Shown here piece after piece: positions 6,459-44,917 of a stretch of DNA of 48,269 bases. The translations under genes were made by a program, and so were the position numbers. This DNA comes from Candidatus Altimarinota bacterium. GTDB lineage: Bacteria > Patescibacteriota > Gracilibacteria > Absconditabacterales > Absconditicoccaceae. Below the pieces are notes generated by a model that did no database searches, was not told where the DNA came from, and was given only the letters and a program-made list of their open reading frames with translations. The first letter of the stretch is position 1. Every line of letters starts with the position of its first letter. Where the stretch lies: contig JALUXR010000055.1 of the NCBI GenBank assembly GCA_027013285.1, positions 1 to 48,269 on the forward strand, written 5' to 3'.

Positions 6459-8360
6459 ATGTTTTATAATATTAAATTAATTAAAATGAAAGTATTACCA
6501 GAAGTTATAAATCTTTATAAAGAAACTTTTGCTCCTTTGAAAAATATGTTTGATGAATTTAAGAAAACTTGAAAAATAAATATAATTATAACTGATTTTT
6601 TGAATGAATTAGGTTTGAAAGAAAATGAAAAAACAATTTATGTAGCATGTGAAAGAATTGCAAATTTAAAAACACCTATTTTAAAATCTTATTTAGATGA
6701 ATCTGATAAAAAAGTAGAAGAAAATATTAAAACTTTAAAAGTAGGTATTCCAAATACATTACAAGATAAACAAAAAATACTTCAAAAAGCATATATTTTT
6801 ACATCAAATTTATATACTGAATATTTTCAAATATTTATTGAAAATGTAAAAGAAAAAAATTTATTAGATGATTTTTATATTACTTTATTAGAATGAAGTT
6901 TAGAAGTTGCAAATGTTTTTAATGATTTTTATTTTGTTTGGTCAGAATATATAGAAAAACAAAATGATATCTTAGATAAAATGTTTTGAAATGATAGTGA
7001 GAAAATAATGACTTATTTAAAAGAAAAGAATTTGTTAGAAAAAGATGAAAATAGAAATTATACCGATAGATCATATACTGTTTTGAAATGATGAATAATG
7101 TTTTCTTATGCACAAGTTTTCCCAAATCAAATAAATAAAATTTCACAAGCTATAGATGATTTTGTAGAAAATTTACAAGATAAAAAAAATAAAGAAAAAC
7201 AGGATATTATAAATTATTTACAAGCTATTAAAGAAGCTTATTTGGAAACTGATACTACAAAACTTTTGAGAAAATGGGAAAAGGTAGATGAATTATGGAT
7301 GCAAATTAAGTGACCTTTTCAAATAGTTCATCCTATGGAATATTATGATGATAAATATAGAAAAGCAGTTCAACCTGAATTTGATATTAGGATTTTGGAT
7401 ACTGAAACATTACAGTCAAATGTTCAACAAGATGTATCTTTTATGTTTGATGAATTATTTAGTAAATTTAATAAAGAAAAATATGAGGAAATTTATAATT
7501 TCTCAAAAGAAAGTTTTTCTCGTGTTTTATTGTTTGTATCTGAACCAGTAATCTATGGAGGTGGTTATATGAACTGACTTTTTTCTGCACAAGTAGTTCC
7601 AAATGATGAAAAAATTAGTGAAAAGTTTGGTAAAAAGATATTTGCTTTCCCAAATAAAGTAAGAGCTGAACAACAAAAAGCTCCTTTAAAAAAACATACA
7701 GTTTTAACTTTTGATAAAGATATTATTGAAGAATATAAAGATATTTTGAATGATTCACAAACTTATTATAAAATTTACGATATAGAAACTATATGACATG
7801 AGTTTGGGCACACACTTTGGATGGGAAATGAAACAGAAGTGAAGATGAATTTTAAAACTTGAAATTTTAAAAATATAGAAGAATGGAAAGCAACAACTTG
7901 ATGATTGGTGGCTTATTTTTATAAAGTTCAGACTCAATTATGAGAGTCCGGACTTGAACAAGAACTTTCTGAATCTGATAAAAAATTGATGTTAATGCAC
8001 TTTAGAAGAAGTGTAGCTTTGATGGAACGGAAAAATTTTGATGAGGTTGCTCCATATTATAATGAAGGACTTATACATTTGGATATCTTGTTTAAATCAG
8101 ATGTTTTACAAATAAAAGACAATAAAGTTTACTTTAATCTAACAGTTCAAACTTATAAAAAATTAAAAGATTTATATTTGAAAACTTATAAAAAACTTAT
8201 TGAAACTTATTTGAATAAAAAAGATGCAGGAGAATTTTTGTTTGATTACATAATTACAGATAAAAATAATTATAACTTACCAAAAGATGATAATCTTAGA
8301 AAATTTGTAATACATTATCAAGAAATATTTGAAAAATATGGAAATGAAGTAGTTAAATAA
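6459..8360 (+). CDS. putative zinc metallopeptidase (HEFGH motif)
   Basis: Track ORFs 6600-6896, 7098-7313, 7335-7577 and 7986-8360 are in one frame and join via TGA codons. Motif ETIGHEFGHTLW, with EEWKATTGG about 25 residues downstream. Start ATG 6459 (alternative ATG 6486). Stop TAA 8358-8360. Confidence 0.8.
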
Positions 8361-8810
8361 AAGTAGCTAAATATCTTTAATTTATTTAATATTAGAAATA
8401 TGGAATTTCTTGTGCATGTGATACCTTGAAGTAAACAAATTTTAGTTAAAAAAGATGGTAAAGATTTGTTGACAAATAGAGATATTTATAAAGTAAAACT
8501 TACTGCGAAACCTATAAATGGAGAAGCAAATAAACAACTTATAGAAGTGTTGGTGGATTTCTTTAAGACAAAAAGAAGATTTATAGAAATTGATAAATGA
8601 GCTAGTAGTAGGTTAAAACTTGTAAAAATAATTGAAAATTAAAAATACTTTTGTACAATTAAATCAATTTTAATTTTTTATTAAAATATTATGAAAACAC
8701 CTTATATTTGGAAAAATGGAGAGTTTATAGCTTGGGATGATGCTTTGGACCATAATATTACTCATTCTTTACATTATGGTAGTTGAGTTTTTGAATGAAT
8801 TAGATTTTAT
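8355..8810 (+). repeat. 456-bp direct repeat, left copy
   Basis: Base-for-base identical to 10757-11212 by line-by-line comparison (offset 2402). Confidence 0.95.
8400..8642 (+). CDS. DUF167 (YggU-like) family protein, copy 1
   Basis: MEFLVHVIPGSKQILVKKDGKDLLTNRDIYKVKLTAKPINGEANKQLIEVLVDFFKTKRRFIEIDKGASSRLKLVKIIEN, the typical DUF167 pattern. Lies inside the repeat. Confidence 0.8.
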
Positions 8811-8822
8811 TATTCTTCATAA
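8691..8822 (+). pseudogene. truncated 5' fragment of ilvE (first 40 codons, then 3 foreign codons and a stop)
   Basis: Identical to the start of the intact ilvE at 11093. The frame leaves the repeat at 8811 and ends at TAA 8820-8822. Confidence 0.85.
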
Positions 8823-8891
8823 GTCCCATAGATTAAGGAGTAAAATTTATAATATTACTTATCACCTAATATTATAATCTTCTATGGGGCT
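8822..8891 (+). other. 70-nt two-tier hairpin at the left edge of the insertion
   Basis: Outer stem AGTCCCATAGA (8822-8832) / TCTATGGGGCT (8881-8891), 11 bp with one G-U. Inner perfect 10-bp stem TATAATATTA (8848-8857) / TAATATTATA (8867-8876) with a 9-nt loop. Followed by a T-rich tract. Confidence 0.6.
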
Positions 8892-8911
8892 TTTAAAATT
8901 GTAATTTTTTT

Positions 8912-8939
8912 TTGACAAAATAATAAAAATAAATAAACT
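8912..8939 (+). promoter_or_regulatory. candidate promoter for the insertion gene
   Basis: TTGACA (8912-8917) - 16 nt - TAAACT (8934-8939). The AT-rich context makes specificity low. Confidence 0.3.
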
Positions 8940-8970
8940 AAACATAGTTTTAAAAAAATAAAAACAAAAA

Positions 8971-10737
8971 ATGAAAGAACATATAGAAAAGGAAGTACAA
9001 AATAATAAAAGTATTACCCCTGTTGAAACAGACCTTTTTAATTCACTTGCTATACCTGAAAATTTTTCAGATTTTTTAAATAGACTGAAAAAATATACTC
9101 AAAACTTAGATTGTCATAATACAAAAACTTGTTTAGAAAATATATTATCCATTTTCTCAAATATGAAAATACCATCATATAGTAATATAATTCAAAAAAT
9201 TGGGAATTTTGATAATAAAAATGGAAATATATTCGAAATAATTAAAAGTAAAGAAATTGAAAATTTTGAATGAGAAGTAGTAAGCATAAGTTTTGATGCA
9301 ATATGAAGTACAAGTTTAGATTCAAGTACTTTGAAAGAATTTATGAAACAAGTTATTTATACAGTAAATATTTTTGAAAATCTGTATAAAAATGAGTGAT
9401 TACAAATGTTTTCTATAAATTGAGATGAAATTCATATTTGATTTTTTTCAAACAAATTAACACAAAAAGAAAAAGTAGAAATTTTCCAATTATTGTCTAT
9501 GATTTTACATTTGATAACTTGAAAAGGATTTCACCATGTAATGTTAGCTTGGGAAAAAGAAAAATGAGAAGGCATCACTGCTGTTTTCCAAGAAAATATT
9601 GCAAATACTATTGTAAGTGAATCTTATAGTTGAGAATACAAAAAAAGCAAAAAATCCAAACTTCCAAATTATATTCAAACAAAATTACTGAAAGAAAAAG
9701 AGCAAATATCACAACTACTATATGGTTTAAATATAAAACCATATTTAAAAATAGATTTTAATAAACTTGAAGAAAATATAGATTATCTTGAAGAAAATAA
9801 TATTCCACTACACAGATTACTAACAAAAATAATCATAAATTATATTTCAAATAACTTACAAAACAAAGAAGTCAATTTATTAGAAAATAAAGAAATAGAA
9901 GTAGTTGAATTTAACAAATGAAAAAAAATAATTTCTTATTGAGAAAAAAATAGTAAGTTATATTTAGTTTTAAATTGAAATGTAGAAATCCAAATTTTTT
10001 GAAATCCAAATTTAGCAAAATATTCTTCTTGAAAAACAATTTTATGAGAAATGTCTATGTATGGAAGACCTGCTAATGCAAATGTAATAGCAGATAGTAA
10101 AGTGAAAACTTTAAAAATAAATAAAAAATTTATAGAAGATATGCTTGTCTGAAATATAATAATAGATGCAAGGTTTACAAAACAATTGGATATATTGTTA
10201 AAAAAATATATTAAGTGAAGAGAAAATTACAATTTACTAATAAATCAATATTTCCAAGAATTAATTAACTATTGAAATAAACCTTTAAGTGAAATATTTG
10301 AAATTTGGAACTTATTTTTGGAAATTTTGCTAAAATCTGAAAAAACATATAAAAAAGCAGAAAATAAACCATTAACTTATAAATGAAAAGAAAACGATAA
10401 ATTATACTTTTTGAGGAAATGAACTATTGTAAGAAAAAATGAAATAAAATTTACATTAGAAAATGATGAATTAATATGAGAAAACACATTTTTACAATAT
10501 ATTAGCTGAAATACAAATCCAAAAGCAAATGCTAGTATAGAAATTGTTGATTGAAAAATAATAGAAATGGATTTTGGGGAAGTTATAAAAGTTTTAGAAA
10601 AAGAGAAAATGGATATAAGTAAATTCCAAGAAGTTTTGGAAAAGATAGCAAAATTAAGAGAAAATAACAATGATTTTGTTTGATTTTGATGAAAAAAAGT
10701 TTTTTCTGGAACTAGTCCTTTCAAAAAAGCAGCCTAA
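8971..10737 (+). CDS. 588-aa protein: nucleotidyl-cyclase-like palm region followed by two cyclic-nucleotide-binding-like domains
   Basis: Verified codon by codon from ATG 8971 to TAA 10735-10737, with 25 in-frame TGA by my count. Only the first 100 aa appear in the track. Motifs: VVSISFDAIGSTSL (9277-9318), INGDEIHIGFF (9415-9447), ENIANTIVSES, GEMSMYGRPANANVIA (10045-10092), GENTFL..NPKANASIEIV (10477-10548). Confidence 0.85.
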
Positions 10738-10756
10738 GATTTCCTCTCCTTCCTAG

Positions 10757-11212
10757 AAATAAAAGTAGCTAAATATCTTTAATTTATTTAATATTAGAAA
10801 TATGGAATTTCTTGTGCATGTGATACCTTGAAGTAAACAAATTTTAGTTAAAAAAGATGGTAAAGATTTGTTGACAAATAGAGATATTTATAAAGTAAAA
10901 CTTACTGCGAAACCTATAAATGGAGAAGCAAATAAACAACTTATAGAAGTGTTGGTGGATTTCTTTAAGACAAAAAGAAGATTTATAGAAATTGATAAAT
11001 GAGCTAGTAGTAGGTTAAAACTTGTAAAAATAATTGAAAATTAAAAATACTTTTGTACAATTAAATCAATTTTAATTTTTTATTAAAATATTATGAAAAC
11101 ACCTTATATTTGGAAAAATGGAGAGTTTATAGCTTGGGATGATGCTTTGGACCATAATATTACTCATTCTTTACATTATGGTAGTTGAGTTTTTGAATGA
11201 ATTAGATTTTAT
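10757..11212 (+). repeat. 456-bp direct repeat, right copy
   Basis: Identical to 8355-8810. Confidence 0.95.
10802..11044 (+). CDS. DUF167 (YggU-like) family protein, copy 2
   Basis: Identical to 8400-8642. Confidence 0.8.
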
Positions 11213-12001
11213 CCTACCGAAAATGGACCGAAGATTTTTAGGCTTAAAGAACATATTCAAAGACTTTTTTATTCTGCATCTTGTATGCAAATGGAAATTC
11301 CTTTTACGGAAGAGGAAATTATAAAAGCTACAATAGAATTAGTTGAAAAATCTGGAATAGAAAGTGGATATATAAGACCTATTGCTTATTTTGGTTATGG
11401 TAAAATGTGATTAAATCCTACATGAGCACCAGTTGAAATTGCTATCTCAGCTTGGGCTTGGTGAAAATATCTTTCAGAAGATCCTATAAATGTAAAAATT
11501 CCATCTGTAAGGAGAATTGATCCTCAAACTATTCCAATGTGAGCAAAAATTTGTGGTAACTATGCAAATAGTATTTTAGCAAGTTTGGAGATTAAAAATG
11601 GAGGTTATGATGAATGACTTTTACTTGATACACAATGATTTATTGCAGAATGACCTGGTGAAAATATCTTTTTTGTAAGATGAAAAGAACTTTTTACACC
11701 AACTTTATGAACTATACTTCCTTGAATTACAAGAGATACTATTATAAAATTATTTAAAGATAAATTTGATATTGATGTAAAAGAAACTAGAATACATCCA
11801 AAACAATTAAAAGAATTTGATGAAACTTTTTTTGTAGGTACAGCAGCAGAAGTAACTCCTATTTGAACTATTACAGATGAGCTTTGAAATAAATTTGAAT
11901 ATAATTCAGGAGAAGAAAATAGCTATACTCAAAAAATAAAAAAAATATATGATGATGTAGTAAAATGAAAAGATAAAGATTATTTACAATGGTTAGCTTA
12001 G
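11093..12001 (+). CDS. ilvE: branched-chain amino acid aminotransferase
   Basis: 302 aa. [40 protein letters not shown]; later GYIRPIAYFGYG, EGPGENIFFV, LPGITRD, FFVGTAAEVTPI. Stop TAG 11999-12001. Track ORF 11139-11324 is in a wrong frame. Confidence 0.93.
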
Positions 12002-22614: not shown

Positions 22615-25218
22615 TTACAGGCTTTCCCATACAGCTTTTTTTTGTCCATCTACTTCCTTTATTTCCAAAAGTTTTACTCTTATGGTATCTCAAATATTAT
22701 AGTAATCTTTCCAATTTATTCATTCTGGTAAGTTTATGTTTTTTTTATGTAAAAGTCCTTCGTATTCATCAGCTAATACAAATAATCCATAATTAAATTT
22801 TAATTTTACAATTCACTCAAAAATATCTCAAATATCATTATTTTCTTTTTGTCATTTTGAATTTATTTCAGAATCTTTAGATCTTGTTATAAGTTTAGTA
22901 TGACTAAGTAGTTTTCATTTTCAATTATCTTTAAAATCTTTTTTAATATCTAAATTTCTCTTTTTTTTAGTTTGTTCTGTATTTTCTTTATGCTTTTCAA
23001 TATTTTTCTTATTTTGAGTTTTTATGCTTTCTCAAATTTCCTTTTCTACATCTTGCTTTGGTTTCGTATATTTAGATTTAGATAGTTGTTTTATTTCTTC
23101 GATAAATTTATTATTTTTTATGTTTTCATCTAAAATAGGTTGAGTAGCTATTCCAAAAACATCTGTAGAAGTCCCATCTATCATTATTTTTGTGTATGCT
23201 TTGAATTTTGGAATAGAGCTTATGTCGTTTGCAGTGATTTGATTTTTAAATTGTTTAGATAATATCTCAGCATCTTCATTTCAACTATTGAAAACTACAA
23301 GATTTCAGATATTTCCAAAAATAGCATTTCTTACATCTTTATCTATCTGACTAATGTATTGGTTTGCAACAGCAAGTGACAATTTATATTTTCTAGCTTC
23401 AGATAAAATTACAGAAAATGATTCAGTGGCAAAATTTTGAAATTCGTCTATGTAGAGTGTAAATTCTTTTCTTTTATTCATAGGTAAATTTGCTCTTTTC
23501 ATAGTTTCTACTTGTATTTGACTTACGATAAATGAACCTATCATAGCAGAATTATCTTCACCAATAAGACCTTTTGATAAATTTACAAGCAAAATTTTAT
23601 TGTTTTGCATTATTTCAGCTATATTGATAGTTGACTTAGTTTGTCAGAAAATATTTCTTATGATAGGAGAAGAAACAAATTGTCCTACTTTGTTCATAAT
23701 TGGACTTATGGCTTCAGATGCAAATCTTTCTGACCGTTTTGTAAATTCTTTTTCCCAGAAATCTTTAATTATAGGGTCTGCAGTTTGTGTTAATACTTCT
23801 TTCCTAAAATCTTTGTCTGTAAGCATTTTCATAATATGTAAGAAATTTGCTTGGTCATACTCAGATAAGGCTAAAAGTGTATTTCTGAAAATATATTCAA
23901 GTCTTGGTCCCCAGCTATTTCAGTATAATTTTTTAAAAATAGACAATACTGTTGAAACGGATAAATCTTTATTATAATTTTTTCATTTTTCAAAAACATT
24001 GAATCCAACAGGATTTTCTGTATCTGAAACATTGAAATATATTATGTCATTTTTTCTATTTTCAGGTATTACTTGCAAAATATTTTCTGCTAAATCTCCG
24101 TGAGGGTCTATCAAAGCAAGTCATCTGCCTCTTTCTAAATCAGACAAAACCATATTTGAAAGCAATGTAGATTTACCAACTCAAGTTTTTCAAATAATAT
24201 ATACATGACGAGCTTTGTCCTCTTGTTTTAGTCAAACAACTTGTTTTTCATCTGCCCAATCTATTTTTCACAAAACAGTGATATCTTCATCTTTCGATGG
24301 TAAATTTGAAGGTGGAGCAAGTCTTTTGTAGTTGATATATTTGATTCATTTGATGTTTTCTTCTTCTGTTGGAACATGAAATATTTTTGAAAATTCATTT
24401 ATTTCAACTGATGAAAAGACCTCTTCGTTCTGTGTATATAATTCTGTTTCTGTAGCTTCGTTTATGTTCTTAAAAAATAACTTATCAAAATTGTTATAGC
24501 CACCTACTCATATTGAAAGTGCAGTTCATTTGATTCAAGTTTCTATCTTTTGTTTTTTGCTTACTTTTGTTATTTTAGGTTCTACTCAAGTAAAAACTCT
24601 TACAAAAAAATAGTAAATTCAAAATAAAAATAATTTTATTCATTTCCAGATAAGCTCAAATAAACTTTCATAATGTATTTCTCAAGAAGAATTTAATATT
24701 ATTGAATATTTTATGATTCATTTGTTATTTGAAGGAATATCTTTGAATAAGAAAAATGTTTCTTTGAAAAAAGTTTTAGATTTTTTTAACTGAATTTTAT
24801 CATCTCATATTGCATGAATATAAGTTTTTAACTCTATTTTTTCATTAAAATCTATTTTTTGTATTTTTGAAGAAGGAAAGTAATTATAAAAATTATTTAC
24901 GAACTTATTTTCAAAATTTGTAGGAAAAGAAATAATTAGCTTAACTGAAGTATTGTTTCAGATAGTATAGAAATTTATTCTTTTTGAAAAATAAGAAAAA
25001 TTCTTTAGCAATTTTGCAAAAGTTTTGTAATCAAAATTATTTTTGTGATATGGTATTATTTCATAATAACTATTTTCTAACTCAACTATATTTTCAGTTT
25101 TTTTTATTTGAGATTTTTTGGATTCTTTTTTTTGTTTTTTCTTCTTGTTTGAATCCAAAAAATCAACTATTTGCTCAGCTAATATTTCAATTTTTTTAAA
25201 CATAAAATTTTTAAACAT
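22615..25218 (-). CDS. VirD4/TraD-like type IV coupling-protein-family ATPase with C-terminal S1 (OB-fold) domain
   Basis: 867 aa, reconstructed codon by codon. Track ORFs 24958-25218, 23644-23832 and 23305-23610 share its frame. Has a TM segment LIWKGIKLFLFGIYYFFV. Walker A GKTGVGKST (24166-24192). Other motifs: ALIDPHGDL, SWGPRLEYIFRN, Walker B-like TLYIDEFQNF, ARKYKLSLAVANQ. The last 71 aa (22618-22830), GDIFEGIVKLKFNYGLFVLADEYEGLLH...IGDTIRVKLLEIK, match the S1 domain pattern. Confidence 0.85.
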
Positions 25219-25332: not shown

Positions 25333-25749
25333 TTATGGAGTATTTCAAGCTGATCATGCAGTACTTGTATTTGAGCTCATAAAACTAAATACTAAATTAA
25401 TAATCATAGCAGAAGCTCAGATAAGTATAAGTCATATAACTGCTTGTTTTACAATAGTAAATCATTTTTTGTATTTACCATCATCACCAGCTGCAGTAAT
25501 CATTTGAAAACCACCCCAAATAAGAATTATTATAGAAATAAGACCTAAGAATCATAATATCCAATTTACAGCAGTTTGTACAAATGTTATAAATCATGTG
25601 TTTCATGTTCATCATGTTTGTCATCATACTACTCAAATAGTTGTAGTATTTTGTTGAGTAAATCAATTTGCAGTAGTAATCATAGGTGCTGCTATAGTAG
25701 TAGCTCACACAATAGCACTTCAAATTAATATTCAAACTTTTTTATTCAT
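25333..25749 (-). CDS. TrbC/VirB2-like (T4SS-type) pilin
   Basis: 138 aa; frame checked. Signal peptide MNKKVGILIGSAIVGATTIAAP, a Gly/Thr-rich linker, then two hydrophobic helices: WILGFLGLISIIILIWGGFQMITAAGDDGKYKKGFTIVKQAVIGLILIGASAMIINLV. Track ORF 25484-25735 is the wrong frame. Confidence 0.65.
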
Positions 25750-43085: not shown

Positions 43086-44018
43086 TTATTTTGCAAAATA
43101 GTAATTTTTTCCTAACTCTTCGTAAGTGCTGATCAGTCAGTCTTGTAGCATATTTTCTAAAAAATTGTTTTCATTGTTTTTTAATTTTACCAAATCTATA
43201 AGTTTTCAGTCTATAAATTTAGCATAAATCATAAAATATATGTTATTTTGTCCTTTTATTTTTACAAAATATCCTGTAATTTTCTCATCAAGTTCTATAG
43301 TTTGTTTCTCAGTTAATCTTTCCAATTTTAAATAAGTATTTTTCAAAATATTCGCATATTCAAAGTTTTGTTTTTCTATAGCTTGTTCTATTTTTTCTTT
43401 GATAAGTTTTTTAACCGGATTAGTTTTTCAGTTAAAAAAATCTATGATAATTTTTACTATTTTTTTATATTCTCATTTTCAATTATCAATTATCAATTTT
43501 CAATTATTTAAGCATCGTCCAGCACATAATCATAATGTAAAATCTGAACATAGTTGTCATTTGTTAAATTTGGTAGTTGAGCATGTTCTAAATTTAAGTA
43601 TTTGTCTTAAAATTTGTAAAATATTTTTTGTATCTTTTTTCCAAGGTTTAGGTCAGATGTAAGTTCAAGGTTTATCTTTGTATCTTGTAAATTCTATCTT
43701 TGGAAAGTCTTCTTGAGTAATTCTAATATAAGTATAGCTGTTGTCTCATTTTAGAAGGCAGTTGTAAGCAGGAGAGTATTTTTTGATTAAATTATTTTCT
43801 AGAATTAAAGCTTCTTCCTCCGTTCTTGTGAGTAAATATTCAATGTCTGTAGCTTTGCTTACCATATCTTCTTTCCATACTCAAATTCAAGTCCTAAAGT
43901 ATTGATGAATTCTTTTATTTAAGTCCTTAGCTTTTCCTACATACAAAACTTTGTTTCATTTTTTCCATAAATAAATTCAAGGTTTATGAGGAAACTTAGC
44001 TATTTTTTCTTTTATCAT
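43086..44018 (-). CDS. UvrC N-terminal-half homologue (GIY-YIG nuclease plus Cys cluster plus UVR domain; Cho-like, 310 aa)
   Basis: [104 protein letters not shown]. Ends about 80 aa after the UVR motif, with no RNase H-like/HhH half. Confidence 0.8.
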
Positions 44019-44132: not shown

Positions 44133-44917
44133 ATGAATCAATATTCACTTACAGAAATGACAACTTTTTTGAAACTCATTATTTTCAACAACTTGAAAAA
44201 ATAAAAAATAATAAAAATATTTTAAATTATAATAACCATAAAATAAGGCATACTTATGGAGTGCTTTTTACAGCTCAAAGAATTATGACTTATGAAAAGG
44301 AAGTATTTAATAGCCCTGAGATAATAAAAAAAGCTGAAATAGCTAGTTTATTACATGATATAGGAAGATTTTATCAAAATGATTGAGACAGGATTTTATC
44401 TTGAAAAGAGTTTGAACATGGAGATATTTGATATGAAACTTTAAAAAAAGAATGAATTACGGATTTAGCTATACTTTTTTGAGTAAAATATCATAATAAA
44501 AAAGATATAAATTGAATTTATAATGAAGAAGCTTTTAAAAATTCTACAAATCAGGAAGAAATTATTAATGTTTTAAATCTTGTAAGGGATGCAGATAAAT
44601 TACAAAATTTAGAGTATATTTTATTTAATTTTAATGATAGAATATTTAATTTAGATAAAATAGATGATAAATATACTGAAATAGTAGTGGAACAAATTTT
44701 AAACAAAGAAATTGTAGATAGGCAACATAAAAAAACTTATATTGATAATATTTTAACATTTACTTGATGGATTTTTGATTTAAATTTTCAAACTTCAAAA
44801 AAATTTTTAGTTAATGACAAATTTGTGGATTTTATTATTTGAAAATTGGTAGAAGTAAATTTAGAAAAAGATTTAATTTCTAAAATAAAAACTACTTTAG
44901 AAGAATATTTGAAATAA
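44133..44917 (+). CDS. HD-domain phosphohydrolase, reading frame broken at a T6 run (frameshift or non-canonical start)
   Basis: The HD frame (HTYGVLFTAQRI, LLHDIGRF, VRDADKLQNLEY) is open from 44120 to TAA 44915-44917. It has no ATG/GTG/TTG before the first conserved His. ATG 44133 (MNQYSLTEMTTF) is in the frame one position off and meets it at TTTTTT 44165-44170. Confidence 0.6.

What the first reader, a model, noticed from the sequence alone, without database searches (positions are those of the whole stretch)
8971..10737. Insertion cargo: one polypeptide combining a cyclase-like palm region with two cNMP-binding-like domains and no recognisable effector
The table-25 translation is a single 588-aa ORF. 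VVSISFDAIGSTSL and INGDEIHIGFF resemble the two metal-binding Asp motifs of class III nucleotidyl cyclase / GGDEF palm domains (FxDIxGFT and IGDxxM). ENIANTIVSES occupies the position of GDTVNxASR. The canonical substrate Lys and transition-state Arg do not appear conserved, so the activity or product could be unusual or lost. Downstream are two segments with phosphate-binding-cassette-like motifs: GEMSMYGRPANANVIA (Arg retained) and GENTFL..NPKANASIEIV (Lys in place of Arg). A putative signal producer and two sensors in one chain, with no TIR, nuclease, transmembrane or HTH output, differs from the two-gene cyclase-plus-effector defence systems (Pycsar, CBASS). It also differs from CNB-regulated transcription factors. 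It sits alone on a freshly acquired cassette in a minimal CPR genome. The function is open; defence, host-interaction signalling and self-regulated cyclase are all possible.
Basis: inference. Interest (0 to 1): 0.72.

Follow-up and report, generated by a model that had tools for sequence, protein, structure and literature searches.

The report
Orphan Gracilibacteria sensor protein, possible cyclase
A real, conserved 588-residue gene found only in a few Gracilibacteria carries two cyclic-nucleotide-binding-type domains that lack the residue normally needed to bind cyclic nucleotides, while its N-terminal half matches no known family, so the proposed "cyclase" is only a plausible guess.

Summary
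The ORF is real. Positions 8971-10737 (+) encode 588 aa under code 25, with 25 in-frame TGA. EF-Tu motifs confirm that TGA means Gly. The first CNB domain is a true Pfam member (PF00027, 45.8 bits against a cutoff of 27.5). The second is a divergent copy of it (hhalign 88.6% between the two). Both keep the Gly-Glu of the phosphate-binding cassette but replace the canonical Arg with a family-wide "ANA" motif, so cNMP binding is doubtful.

The cyclase-like N-terminus has no statistical support from Pfam, PDB profiles, hhalign or Foldseek. What remains is suggestive only: invariant D109 and G151-D152 spaced 40-43 aa apart (44 in class III cyclases), a βααββα pattern in two low-confidence AlphaFold models, and weak fold hits enriched in palm enzymes. 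The canonical Lys and Asn-Arg are absent.

The family is tiny: 8 clusters, all code 25. It is under purifying selection (dN/dS 0.26), monocistronic, and sits in a different housekeeping context in every genome. Here it lies in a 1946-bp insert flanked by perfect 456-bp direct repeats, with no mobility gene.

Verdict: a new, very rare variant of CNB-regulated signalling proteins. Its enzymology is unproven.

The parts
8971..10737 (+). 588-aa ORF (code 25; 25 TGA=Gly codons), the family member under study
8971..9225 (+). aa 1-85: predicted helical N-terminal region with conserved FLNRLK motif; least constrained part (dN/dS 0.46)
9226..9675 (+). aa 86-235: putative palm-like core. Invariant K92, G101, D109, N133, F135, E136, G151-D152, G157, F159, T183, K196, G199, T213, S216, K224, N233. 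Predicted β-α-α-β-β-α. Most constrained globular part (dN/dS 0.17). No family match.
9676..9870 (+). aa 236-300: variable helical linker ending in the conserved INYISNNLQ
9871..10170 (+). aa 301-400: CNB-fold domain 1 (PF00027 above gathering); PBC GEMSMYGRPANANV without the canonical Arg
10171..10335 (+). aa 401-455: long, very conserved helix between the CNB domains (dN/dS 0.09); candidate dimerisation/transduction helix
10336..10590 (+). aa 456-540: CNB-fold domain 2 (divergent); PBC GENTFL...KANASI, the same GE...ANA variant
10591..10737 (+). aa 541-588: helical tail, Gly-rich FxGFGG, C-terminus ...KKAA (terminal Ala invariant in the family)
8912..8939 (+). promoter-like TTGACA-16-TAAACT; a TTGACA box at the same distance is present upstream of all but one of the 8 family genes
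8811..10756 (.). 1946-bp unique insert between the two repeat copies. Only 8908-10737 is shared (about 80% nt identity) with homologous loci.
8355..8810 (.). direct repeat copy 1 (456 bp, 100% identical to copy 2): last 6 nt (final sense codon plus stop) of the DUF7897 gene, a DUF167 gene, and the first 40 codons of the class IV aminotransferase gene
10757..11212 (.). direct repeat copy 2, continuous with the intact aminotransferase gene (11093-12001)
8691..8822 (+). truncated duplicate 5' fragment of the aminotransferase gene, running into the insert and stopping after 43 codons
8821..8892 (+). long imperfect hairpin followed by UUUU, inside the part of the insert not shared with other loci

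Best explanation
The gene encodes a soluble, probably dimeric, ligand-gated nucleotidyl-transferase/cyclase-type signalling protein restricted to code-25 Gracilibacteria. Its layout is: a helical N-terminus; a very divergent palm-type catalytic core with two invariant carboxylates (D109 at the end of β1, G151-D152 in the β2-β3 hairpin); and a tandem pair of CNB-fold sensor domains joined by a highly conserved helix.

Proposed mechanism: a small ligand binds the CNB-fold pair. Because the phosphate-clamping Arg is replaced by an invariant 'ANA' motif in both domains, this ligand is probably not canonical cAMP or cGMP. Binding is relayed through the 401-455 helix and switches the palm domain on or off. 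The output is the nucleotide product rather than a fused effector.

Shown: the ORF and genetic code; CNB1 membership; CNB2 homology; loss of the Arg; purifying selection; rarity; lack of synteny or a partner gene; repeat-flanked insertion. Inferred: the palm fold, catalysis, dimerisation and direction of regulation.

The copy in this window reached its site by a recent duplication-insertion (or Campbell-type integration of a 2.4-kb circle) without any mobility gene.
For: CNB1 matches PF00027 at 45.8 bits (cutoff 27.5) and PKA-R at E 4e-8. CNB2 is homologous to CNB1 (hhalign 88.6%). 7 of 8 members hit PF00027. All top-50 Foldseek hits of the full-length model are CNB proteins.

In the N-terminal core, D109 and G151-D152 are among only 18 invariant positions across 8 members at 23-80% identity. 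The pattern D-x-x-[GN]-[SN]-[TSN]...GD has a D-D spacing of 40-43 aa in the family and 44 aa in genuine class III cyclases; the scripted regex matched 7 of 8 members (the eighth, with 40-aa spacing, misses its gap bound by one residue) and had 0 hits in 26.6 k residues of neighbouring ORFs. Two independent AlphaFold runs on different family members give the same β-α-α-β-β-α(-β) order. That order is the class III signature topology (PMC4886424). The weak Foldseek top hits include many palm enzymes: AC C2 domains, AC9, sGC, the uridylate cyclase PycC, Cas10, Thg1-like, RTs and AbiA.

This core is the most constrained globular segment (dN/dS 0.17) and holds many invariant polar residues (K92, N133, E136, T183, K196, T213, S216, K224, N233), as expected of an active site. 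Each family gene has its own promoter-like box and no conserved neighbour.
Against: No statistical support for the palm or cyclase assignment. There is no PF00211 or PF00990 hit at E<=10 for any of the 8 members. PDB profile searches of the N-terminal region return only single spurious hits at E 0.9, none to a cyclase. hhalign against a 120-sequence class III profile gives 0.9% probability, and 7 of 100 column shuffles score as well. hhalign against GGDEF gives 0.06%. Foldseek finds no hit at E<=0.001.

The models are low confidence (pLDDT 37 and 51). They had to be built from sequences carrying Trp at every TGA-encoded Gly, including motif positions.

The canonical substrate Lys (K-x-x-G-D) and the transition-state Asn-x-x-x-Arg are absent family-wide; the equivalent region reads (N/Q)-T-x-x-S. 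With the Arg-less PBC there is no evidence that any nucleotide is bound.
Confidence: 0.33

Rival explanations
1. A CNB-fold ligand sensor whose N-terminal half is a new, non-palm (or at least non-catalytic) output domain. It would act by protein-protein interaction or sequestration, in the manner of a PKA regulatory subunit: two tandem CNB domains controlling a binding surface. No messenger is made by this protein.
For: The best PDB matches of the CNB region are PKA-R subunits with tandem CNB-A/B. The N-terminal 300 aa match nothing in Pfam, NCBIfam, PADLOC, PHROGs or PDB. Profile-profile scores lie within the shuffle distributions. The canonical cyclase Lys and Asn-Arg are missing.
Against: Invariant acidic residues fall exactly at the two positions and spacing typical of palm active sites. 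Many polar residues are invariant. The predicted ferredoxin-like βααββα order recurs in two models. No conserved neighbouring gene could serve as a partner.
Confidence: 0.3
2. A degenerate palm pseudo-enzyme. The N-terminal core descends from a cyclase/GGDEF-type palm but has lost catalysis. It now serves as a nucleotide-binding or dimerisation module, so the whole protein is a three-site nucleotide receptor or scaffold.
For: The Asp pair and topology are retained, while the substrate Lys and transition-state Asn-Arg are lost in all 8 members. Both CNB domains are likewise non-canonical.
Against: The core is under the strongest constraint of any globular segment (dN/dS 0.17). Both metal-binding carboxylates are kept invariant, whereas these are usually the first residues to drift in dead palm domains (own knowledge).
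Confidence: 0.15
3. A single-gene anti-phage or conflict system, in effect a fused Pycsar-like module. A signal sensed by the CNB-fold pair would trigger the palm domain to deplete NTPs or make a toxic or alarm nucleotide. This would explain the patchy, non-syntenic distribution and the recent insertion.
For: Every PADLOC hit is to a Pycsar model (one labelled PycC, four PycTIR/TIR-effector models), E 6.5e-10 to 4.6e-6. The gene sits at a different locus in every genome, and contigs often break at its edges. Perfect 456-bp repeats mark a recent gain. The top weak fold hit is the abortive-infection polymerase AbiA.
Against: The PADLOC hits cover only the CNB region. There is no effector (TIR, TM, nuclease) and there are no neighbouring defence genes. 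Neighbours are housekeeping genes: mutL, fusA, dnaA, recG, ilvE. No viral contig, phage or plasmid relative was found. The AbiA hit has E 0.11 and TM 0.23.
Confidence: 0.12
4. An artefact: the repeat-insert-repeat layout is a mis-assembly, or the ORF is a decaying pseudogene.
For: Short-read de Bruijn graphs cannot separate A-R-I-R-B from A-R-B plus a 2402-bp circle. Two other assemblies stop exactly k-mer-deep inside the repeat (L012, k141; L013).
Against: Both insert/repeat junctions are present, at 100% identity, in three other public records from other assemblies or samples. The ORF is intact in 8 diverged lineages with dN/dS 0.26 and host-like codon usage.
Confidence: 0.03

Closest known systems
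Tandem-CNB regulatory proteins (PKA regulatory subunit type; PF00027)
   Same: Two CNB-fold β-barrel domains in series with a connecting helix. These are the best sequence matches in the PDB (E 4e-8). The Gly-Glu of the phosphate-binding cassette is conserved in both domains.
   Different: The canonical PBC Arg is replaced (GE...ANA) in both domains family-wide. There is no docking or inhibitor segment. The CNB pair is C-terminal to a 300-aa orphan region. The host is bacterial, code 25.
Class III nucleotidyl cyclases (PF00211), including Pycsar PycC
   Same: A D-x-x-G-[SF]-T-like motif and a G-D motif 40-43 aa apart (44 in cyclases). Predicted βααββαβ order (topology per PMC4886424). Weak Foldseek hits to AC C2, AC9, sGC and PycC 8jsz.
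   Different: No HMM, profile-profile or significant structural match. No substrate Lys/Glu and no Asn-x-x-x-Arg. The region after the hairpin is shorter. Membership is not established.
Pycsar (PycC cyclase plus CNB-TIR/CNB-TM effector)
   Same: The CNB domain scores best against Pycsar models in PADLOC (one labelled PycC, the rest PycTIR/TIR effectors). The idea of a cyclase plus a CNB receptor is shared.
   Different: Pycsar is a two-gene system whose CNB keeps G, E and R (PMC11224242) and is fused to a killing domain. Here there is one gene, no effector, no Arg and no partner.
CNB-homology domains that do not bind cNMP (KCNH/EAG CNBHD; CRP/FNR members such as CooA)
   Same: The best PDB profile hit of CNB2 is a mosquito potassium-channel-type CNB-homology domain (4l11; own reading of the entry, which the depositors name only AGAP007709-PA). 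CooA is among the fold hits. The fold is retained without the cNMP-binding Arg.
   Different: No channel or HTH context. The 'ANA' replacement motif is specific to this family.
GGDEF / Cas10-mCpol palm domains
   Same: An x-G-D-[EKR]-[IL] hairpin motif loosely resembles GG[DE]EF/GGDD. There is a weak Foldseek hit to Csm1.
   Different: No PF00990 hit. The second acidic residue is not conserved. hhalign gives 0.06%.

Membership tests
Class III nucleotidyl cyclase (PF00211) | Match to the family HMM at or above the gathering score | tested here: not met
   No PF00211 hit even at E<=10 for the full protein, for 4 close members or for 8 N-terminal cores. PDB profile searches return no cyclase.
Class III nucleotidyl cyclase (PF00211) | Two metal-binding Asp residues (end of β1; β2-β3 hairpin), about 44 aa apart | tested here: inconclusive
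   Invariant D109 and G151-D152 with 40-43 aa spacing, against 44 in 120 genuine cyclases. The structural register rests on models with pLDDT 37-51.
Class III nucleotidyl cyclase (PF00211) | Substrate-specifying Lys (or Glu) four residues before the G-D Asp | tested here: not met
   The position holds S/A/Y/S/Q across the family.
Class III nucleotidyl cyclase (PF00211) | Transition-state Asn-x-x-x-Arg | tested here: not met
   The candidate region reads (N/Q)-T-x-x-S, with no conserved Arg anywhere in residues 86-235.
Class III nucleotidyl cyclase (PF00211) | βααββαβ palm topology confirmed by significant structural similarity | tested here: inconclusive
   The same strand/helix order appears in two AF2 models. 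Foldseek gives no hit at E<=0.001; palm proteins appear among weak hits at E 0.1-0.8. The hhalign control (GGDEF against cyclase, also about 0.4%) shows my profile tests cannot see fold-level homology.
Class III nucleotidyl cyclase (PF00211) | NTP to cNMP + PPi activity as a dimer | not testable with these tools
   Needs recoded expression and biochemistry.
GGDEF diguanylate cyclase (PF00990) | HMM match and GG[DE]EF active-site motif | tested here: not met
   No PF00990 hit. The motif is x-G-D-[EKR]-[IL]. hhalign gives 0.06%, and 57 of 60 shuffles score as well.
Cyclic nucleotide-binding domain (PF00027) | HMM match at or above gathering (domain 1) | tested here: met
   45.8 bits against a cutoff of 27.5, residues 312-392; PKA-R at E 4e-8.
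Cyclic nucleotide-binding domain (PF00027) | Second domain is also a CNB fold | tested here: met
   Below gathering alone (13.1 bits), but 7 of 8 members hit PF00027 (best E 1.2e-4). Nearly all PDB profile hits are CNB/CNBHD proteins. hhalign of CNB1 against CNB2 gives 88.6%, E 2.6e-6. All top-50 Foldseek hits are CNB proteins (low-confidence model).
Cyclic nucleotide-binding domain (PF00027) | PBC Gly-Glu (ribose 2'-OH contact) | tested here: met
   G359-E360 and G503-E504 are invariant in the 8 members.
Cyclic nucleotide-binding domain (PF00027) | PBC Arg that clamps the cyclic phosphate (conserved G/E/R triad; PMC11224242) | tested here: not met
   The PKA Arg aligns with A368. The family-wide motif is A-N-A in both domains. 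R366 and K518 of the window protein are out of register and not conserved.
Cyclic nucleotide-binding domain (PF00027) | Actual binding of cAMP, cGMP, cUMP or cCMP | not testable with these tools
   Needs ITC or DSF on purified domains.
Pycsar | Adjacent PycC cyclase gene plus a CNB-TIR or CNB-TM effector gene | tested here: not met
   All PADLOC hits map to the same CNB-region residues (306-391). There is no effector domain. The 8 genomic contexts all differ and have housekeeping neighbours.
CBASS | CD-NTase (Pol-β fold) plus an effector operon | tested here: not met
   No CD-NTase or SMODS hit in PADLOC or Pfam; no operon.
CRP/FNR transcription factors | C-terminal HTH DNA-binding domain after the CNB domain and dimer helix | tested here: not met
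   The CRP equivalog reaches only 18.8 bits against a cutoff of 266, through the CNB domain. No HTH family hits.
Canonical mobile element (IS, transposon, integron cassette, prophage) | Transposase or integrase, terminal inverted repeats or attC, and a short target duplication | tested here: not met
   The insert holds only this gene. The flanking duplication is 456 bp. No terminal inverted repeats. No phage, plasmid or viral relatives.

The most novel reading that the evidence does not exclude
A self-contained, one-polypeptide nucleotide-messenger module of a new kind. It would combine a strongly diverged palm cyclase or transferase that uses non-canonical catalytic residues with two CNB-fold receptors whose Arg-less 'GE...ANA' cassette recognises a non-canonical ligand. 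The module would move between Gracilibacteria genomes without any mobility gene, and would act in conflict or episymbiont-host interaction, perhaps with turnover set by the conserved C-terminal Ala-Ala end.
Probability: 0.1. Interest if true: 0.75.

Novelty: new variant of a known kind. Interest (0 to 1): 0.4.

Why it matters
If the N-terminal core is an active palm enzyme, this would be a very divergent branch of nucleotide-messenger synthases. It would be fused to receptors that have abandoned the universal cNMP-binding Arg, and it would sit in a candidate-phyla-radiation lineage where almost nothing is known about signalling. That could point to a new messenger or a new CNB ligand class.

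If it is not an enzyme, the family still supplies a conserved 300-aa orphan domain and an Arg-less CNB variant. It also shows how genes are gained in reduced code-25 genomes: a 456-bp duplication-insertion with no mobility gene.

The practical lesson is that public predictions for code-25 organisms carry Trp (or stops) at Gly codons. This cripples homology and structure inference for such families.

Tried and rejected
Only the database versions, which carry Trp at TGA-encoded Gly positions, could be folded. The full-length model had pLDDT 37 and the N-terminal model of P0009 with an 8-sequence MSA had pLDDT 51. Neither is usable for firm fold assignment.

(2) Foldseek found nothing significant against PDB or BFVD.

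(3) Pfam, NCBIfam, PADLOC and PHROGs scans of the N-terminal region found nothing for up to 8 members.

(4) PDB profile searches of the N-terminus returned no cyclase, only single spurious hits at E 0.9.

(5) hhalign against class III cyclase profiles built here (4 and 120 sequences) and against a GGDEF mini-profile scored within shuffle nulls. The GGDEF-against-cyclase control also failed, so these tests reject family membership but say nothing about fold.

(6) A second word-index homologue search with the family profile added no members. A genome-collection scan gave one Gracilibacteria locus. A custom TGA-aware DNA pattern gave 4 JGI contigs and 0 viral contigs.

(7) The empty-site search (A-end, 441-471 nt, B-start) in JGI metagenomes gave 0 hits.

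(8) Metallophosphoesterase, Pol-β NTase and GGDEF readings of the D.../GD motifs were considered and rejected because motif spacing or residues do not fit (inspection).

(9) Rfam found nothing on the insert and flanks.

(10) A foreign origin of the cargo is rejected: TGA supplies 76% of Gly codons and GC3 is 0.12, both within the host gene range.
Full report
**Observation.** Window 8971-10737 (+) is a single 588-codon reading frame only if TGA is sense: it has 25 in-frame TGA and one terminal TAA. The window's EF-Tu has TGA at the Gly of GHVDHGKT and DCPGH. Homologues swap TGA and GGN at the same columns. The code is therefore table 25 (Gracilibacteria/SR1). One family-bearing contig is titled 'Candidatus Gracilibacteria bacterium'. 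TGA supplies 76% of the gene's Gly codons and GC3 is 0.12, both inside the range of neighbouring host genes. The gene is therefore native to this lineage, not foreign.

**The C-terminal half.** Pfam gives one family above threshold: cNMP_binding (PF00027), E 6e-12, 45.8 bits against a cutoff of 27.5, residues 312-392. A family profile hits PKA regulatory subunits at E 4e-8. The PADLOC hits are all Pycsar models (one labelled PycC, four PycTIR/TIR-effector models) and all cover the same CNB-region residues, 306-391.

The second domain is below the Pfam cutoff in this protein, but several lines support it:
- 7 of 8 family members hit PF00027 there.
- Nearly all its PDB profile hits are CNB or CNB-homology domains.
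- The CNB1 and CNB2 family profiles match each other by hhalign (88.6%, E 2.6e-6).
- All top-50 Foldseek hits of the otherwise poor full-length model are CNB proteins.

Two CNB-fold domains are therefore confirmed. Their phosphate-binding cassettes are not canonical. Gly-Glu is invariant in both, but the Arg that clamps the cyclic phosphate is not there; G, E and R form the conserved triad (PMC11224242). The PKA Arg aligns with A368, and the family-wide motif in both domains is A-N-A-x-[VIF]. The 'Lys' of domain 2 is present in 5 of 8 members. Canonical cAMP or cGMP binding is therefore doubtful. A conserved replacement motif in both domains argues for a conserved ligand or contact that differs from the canonical one.

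**The N-terminal half.** Nothing in Pfam, NCBIfam, PADLOC, PHROGs or the PDB matches residues 1-300, for this protein or for any relative.

An exhaustive phmmer search of 1.84 billion cluster representatives with residues 1-297 found four remote relatives (P0005, P0006, P0007, P0009; 31-40% identity to the query). All have the same architecture and all use code 25. With the three close homologues (P0002-P0004) and the window protein itself, the family has 8 clusters. Across them only 18 positions of the 86-235 core are invariant. These include D109, G151-D152, G157, F159, K92, N133, F135, E136, T183, K196, G199, T213, S216, K224 and N233.

- D-x-x-[GN]-[SN]-[TSN] followed by G-D gives a D-D spacing of 40-43 residues, against 44 in genuine class III cyclases. 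The scripted regex matched 7 of 8 members (the member with 40-aa spacing misses the gap bound by one residue) and occurs 0 times in 26.6 k residues of neighbouring ORFs. This test is post hoc.
- Two AlphaFold runs on different members give the same β-α-α-β-β-α(-β) order, with the Asp residues at the end of β1 and in the hairpin. That order is the class III signature topology (PMC4886424).
- The weak Foldseek hits (E 0.1-0.8) include AC C2 domains, AC9, sGC, the Pycsar uridylate cyclase, Cas10, Thg1-like proteins, reverse transcriptases and AbiA, as well as generic ferredoxin folds.

None of this is significant:
- The models have pLDDT 37 and 51.
- hhalign against a 120-sequence cyclase profile gives 0.9% probability, and 7 of 100 column shuffles score as well. 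Restricting the comparison to the motif region does no better. GGDEF gives 0.06%.
- My positive control, GGDEF against class III cyclase (two families that share the palm), also scores about 0.4%. These tests therefore exclude family membership but cannot address fold-level homology.
- The substrate Lys and the Asn-x-x-x-Arg are absent family-wide.

I estimate about 50% that the core is a palm-type fold and about one third that it is an active nucleotidyl transferase or cyclase.

**Is it functional?** Yes. Among the four close homologues dN/dS is 0.26 overall. It is 0.17 in the putative palm core (the most constrained globular part) and 0.09 in the long helix between the CNB domains. The protein has no TM segment. 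All members end in Ala and 6 of 8 end in -AA. This resembles a ClpX C-terminal degron, but that is untested.

**Context and distribution.** The family is extremely rare: 8 clusters in the searches of 5.8 and 1.84 billion proteins, four JGI metagenome contigs for a TGA-aware DNA pattern, and no viral contig. There are no phage or plasmid relatives.

Each member sits in a different place:
- between mutL and fusA (L001);
- after dnaA and before an M23 peptidase gene (L007);
- next to recG (L010);
- next to a translational GTPase gene (L014);
- next to SfsA (L016);
- next to an MGDG-synthase gene (L018);
- here, between DUF167 and a class IV aminotransferase gene.

No partner gene recurs. All but one of the family genes have their own TTGACA box about 55-65 nt upstream. 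The rest of the 48-kb window holds housekeeping genes with no cyclase or other CNB protein among the proteins scanned.

**The insertion.** A perfect 456-bp direct repeat (8355-8810 and 10757-11212) brackets 1946 bp of unique DNA. The repeat carries the last 6 nt of the DUF7897 gene, a whole DUF167 gene and the first 40 codons of the aminotransferase gene. The layout leaves all host genes intact plus a truncated 43-codon fragment. Only 8908-10737 is shared with homologous loci, at about 80% nt identity. The remaining 97 nt on the left contain a strong hairpin with no Rfam match.

Three other public records from other assemblies or samples reproduce both junctions at 100% identity. Two of them end exactly k-mer-deep in the repeat. 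That is what a de Bruijn graph yields for either A-R-I-R-B or A-R-B plus a 2402-bp R-I circle, and short reads cannot distinguish these. There is no transposase, integrase, terminal inverted repeat or short target duplication.

The event looks like a recent template-switch or illegitimate duplication-insertion, or a Campbell-type integration (inference). An empty-site search found nothing in the JGI collection, which does not appear to hold this strain.

**Mechanism.** Best supported (about 0.33): a dimeric, ligand-gated palm enzyme whose product is the output, controlled by a tandem Arg-less CNB-fold sensor through the conserved helix.

Rivals:
- a PKA-R-like sensor with a non-catalytic orphan output domain (0.30);
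- a palm pseudo-enzyme or nucleotide receptor (0.15);
- a single-gene conflict system (0.12, overlapping the others);
- an artefact (0.03).

**Comparison and novelty.** The protein is a member of the CNB-domain superfamily (domain 1 by Pfam threshold). It fails the defining Arg test for cNMP binding. It is not a member of PF00211 or PF00990, nor of Pycsar, CBASS or CRP/FNR. Fusions of cyclase and CNB domains exist elsewhere (own knowledge), so the concept is not new.

What is new is the orphan N-terminal domain, the 'GE...ANA' cassette in both CNB domains, the restriction to code-25 bacteria, and the mode of gene gain. I file it as a new variant of a known kind, of moderate interest. Recoded expression and a proper structure prediction would settle it quickly.

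Noticed in passing
window 10726-10737 and C-termini of L001, L007, L010, L014, L015, L016, L018 genes: All 8 family proteins end in Ala, and 6 of 8 end in -AA (KKAA, KKTA, KKAA, KRVA, AKAA, QKAA, RLAA, ETAA). This resembles the ssrA/ClpX 'LAA' C-terminal degron and could mean regulated turnover.
   Followed up: partly
window 8821-8892: A long imperfect hairpin (10-bp outer and 11-bp inner perfect stems) followed by UUUU, z = -3.2. It lies in the 97 nt of the insert not shared with any homologous locus, is unique in the window and loci, and has no Rfam match. It may be a terminator for the truncated upstream fragment or a remnant of the donor context.
   Followed up: partly
window 8355-8810 / 10757-11212; L012, L013: Contigs from other assemblies contain only the insert plus exactly k-mer-length pieces of the repeat on each side. 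The graph is equally compatible with a free 2402-bp circle (repeat plus insert) beside an uninterrupted chromosome.
   Followed up: partly
L007 3018-4247 (+) and 4118-4831 (-): Two near-identical Peptidase_M23 genes in inverted orientation overlap at the contig end, probably an assembly fold-back artefact in that hydrothermal-vent contig.
   Followed up: no
window 22615-25218 (-) and 25333-25749 (-): An 867-aa HerA/TraG-like ATPase with a C-terminal S1 RNA-binding domain lies next to a T4SS-type pilin gene, just upstream of the tRNA cluster and EF-Tu. This is an unusual domain combination.
   Followed up: no
window 6459-8360 (+): A 633-aa protein matches DUF7897 end to end (E 1e-149). It contains an HExxH-like 'GHEFGH' motif, suggesting an uncharacterised metallopeptidase.
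   Followed up: no
database proteins P0001-P0009: Public gene calls for these code-25 contigs were translated with TGA = Trp (23-26 wrong residues per protein in the four checked, often at conserved Gly). This depresses homology and structure prediction for the whole lineage.
   Followed up: yes
window 44285-44917 (+), 43086-44018 (-): An HD-domain protein (a possible phosphohydrolase) and a GIY-YIG protein (UvrC-like N-terminus) lie about 33 kb from the gene. No link to the CNB protein is evident.
   Followed up: no
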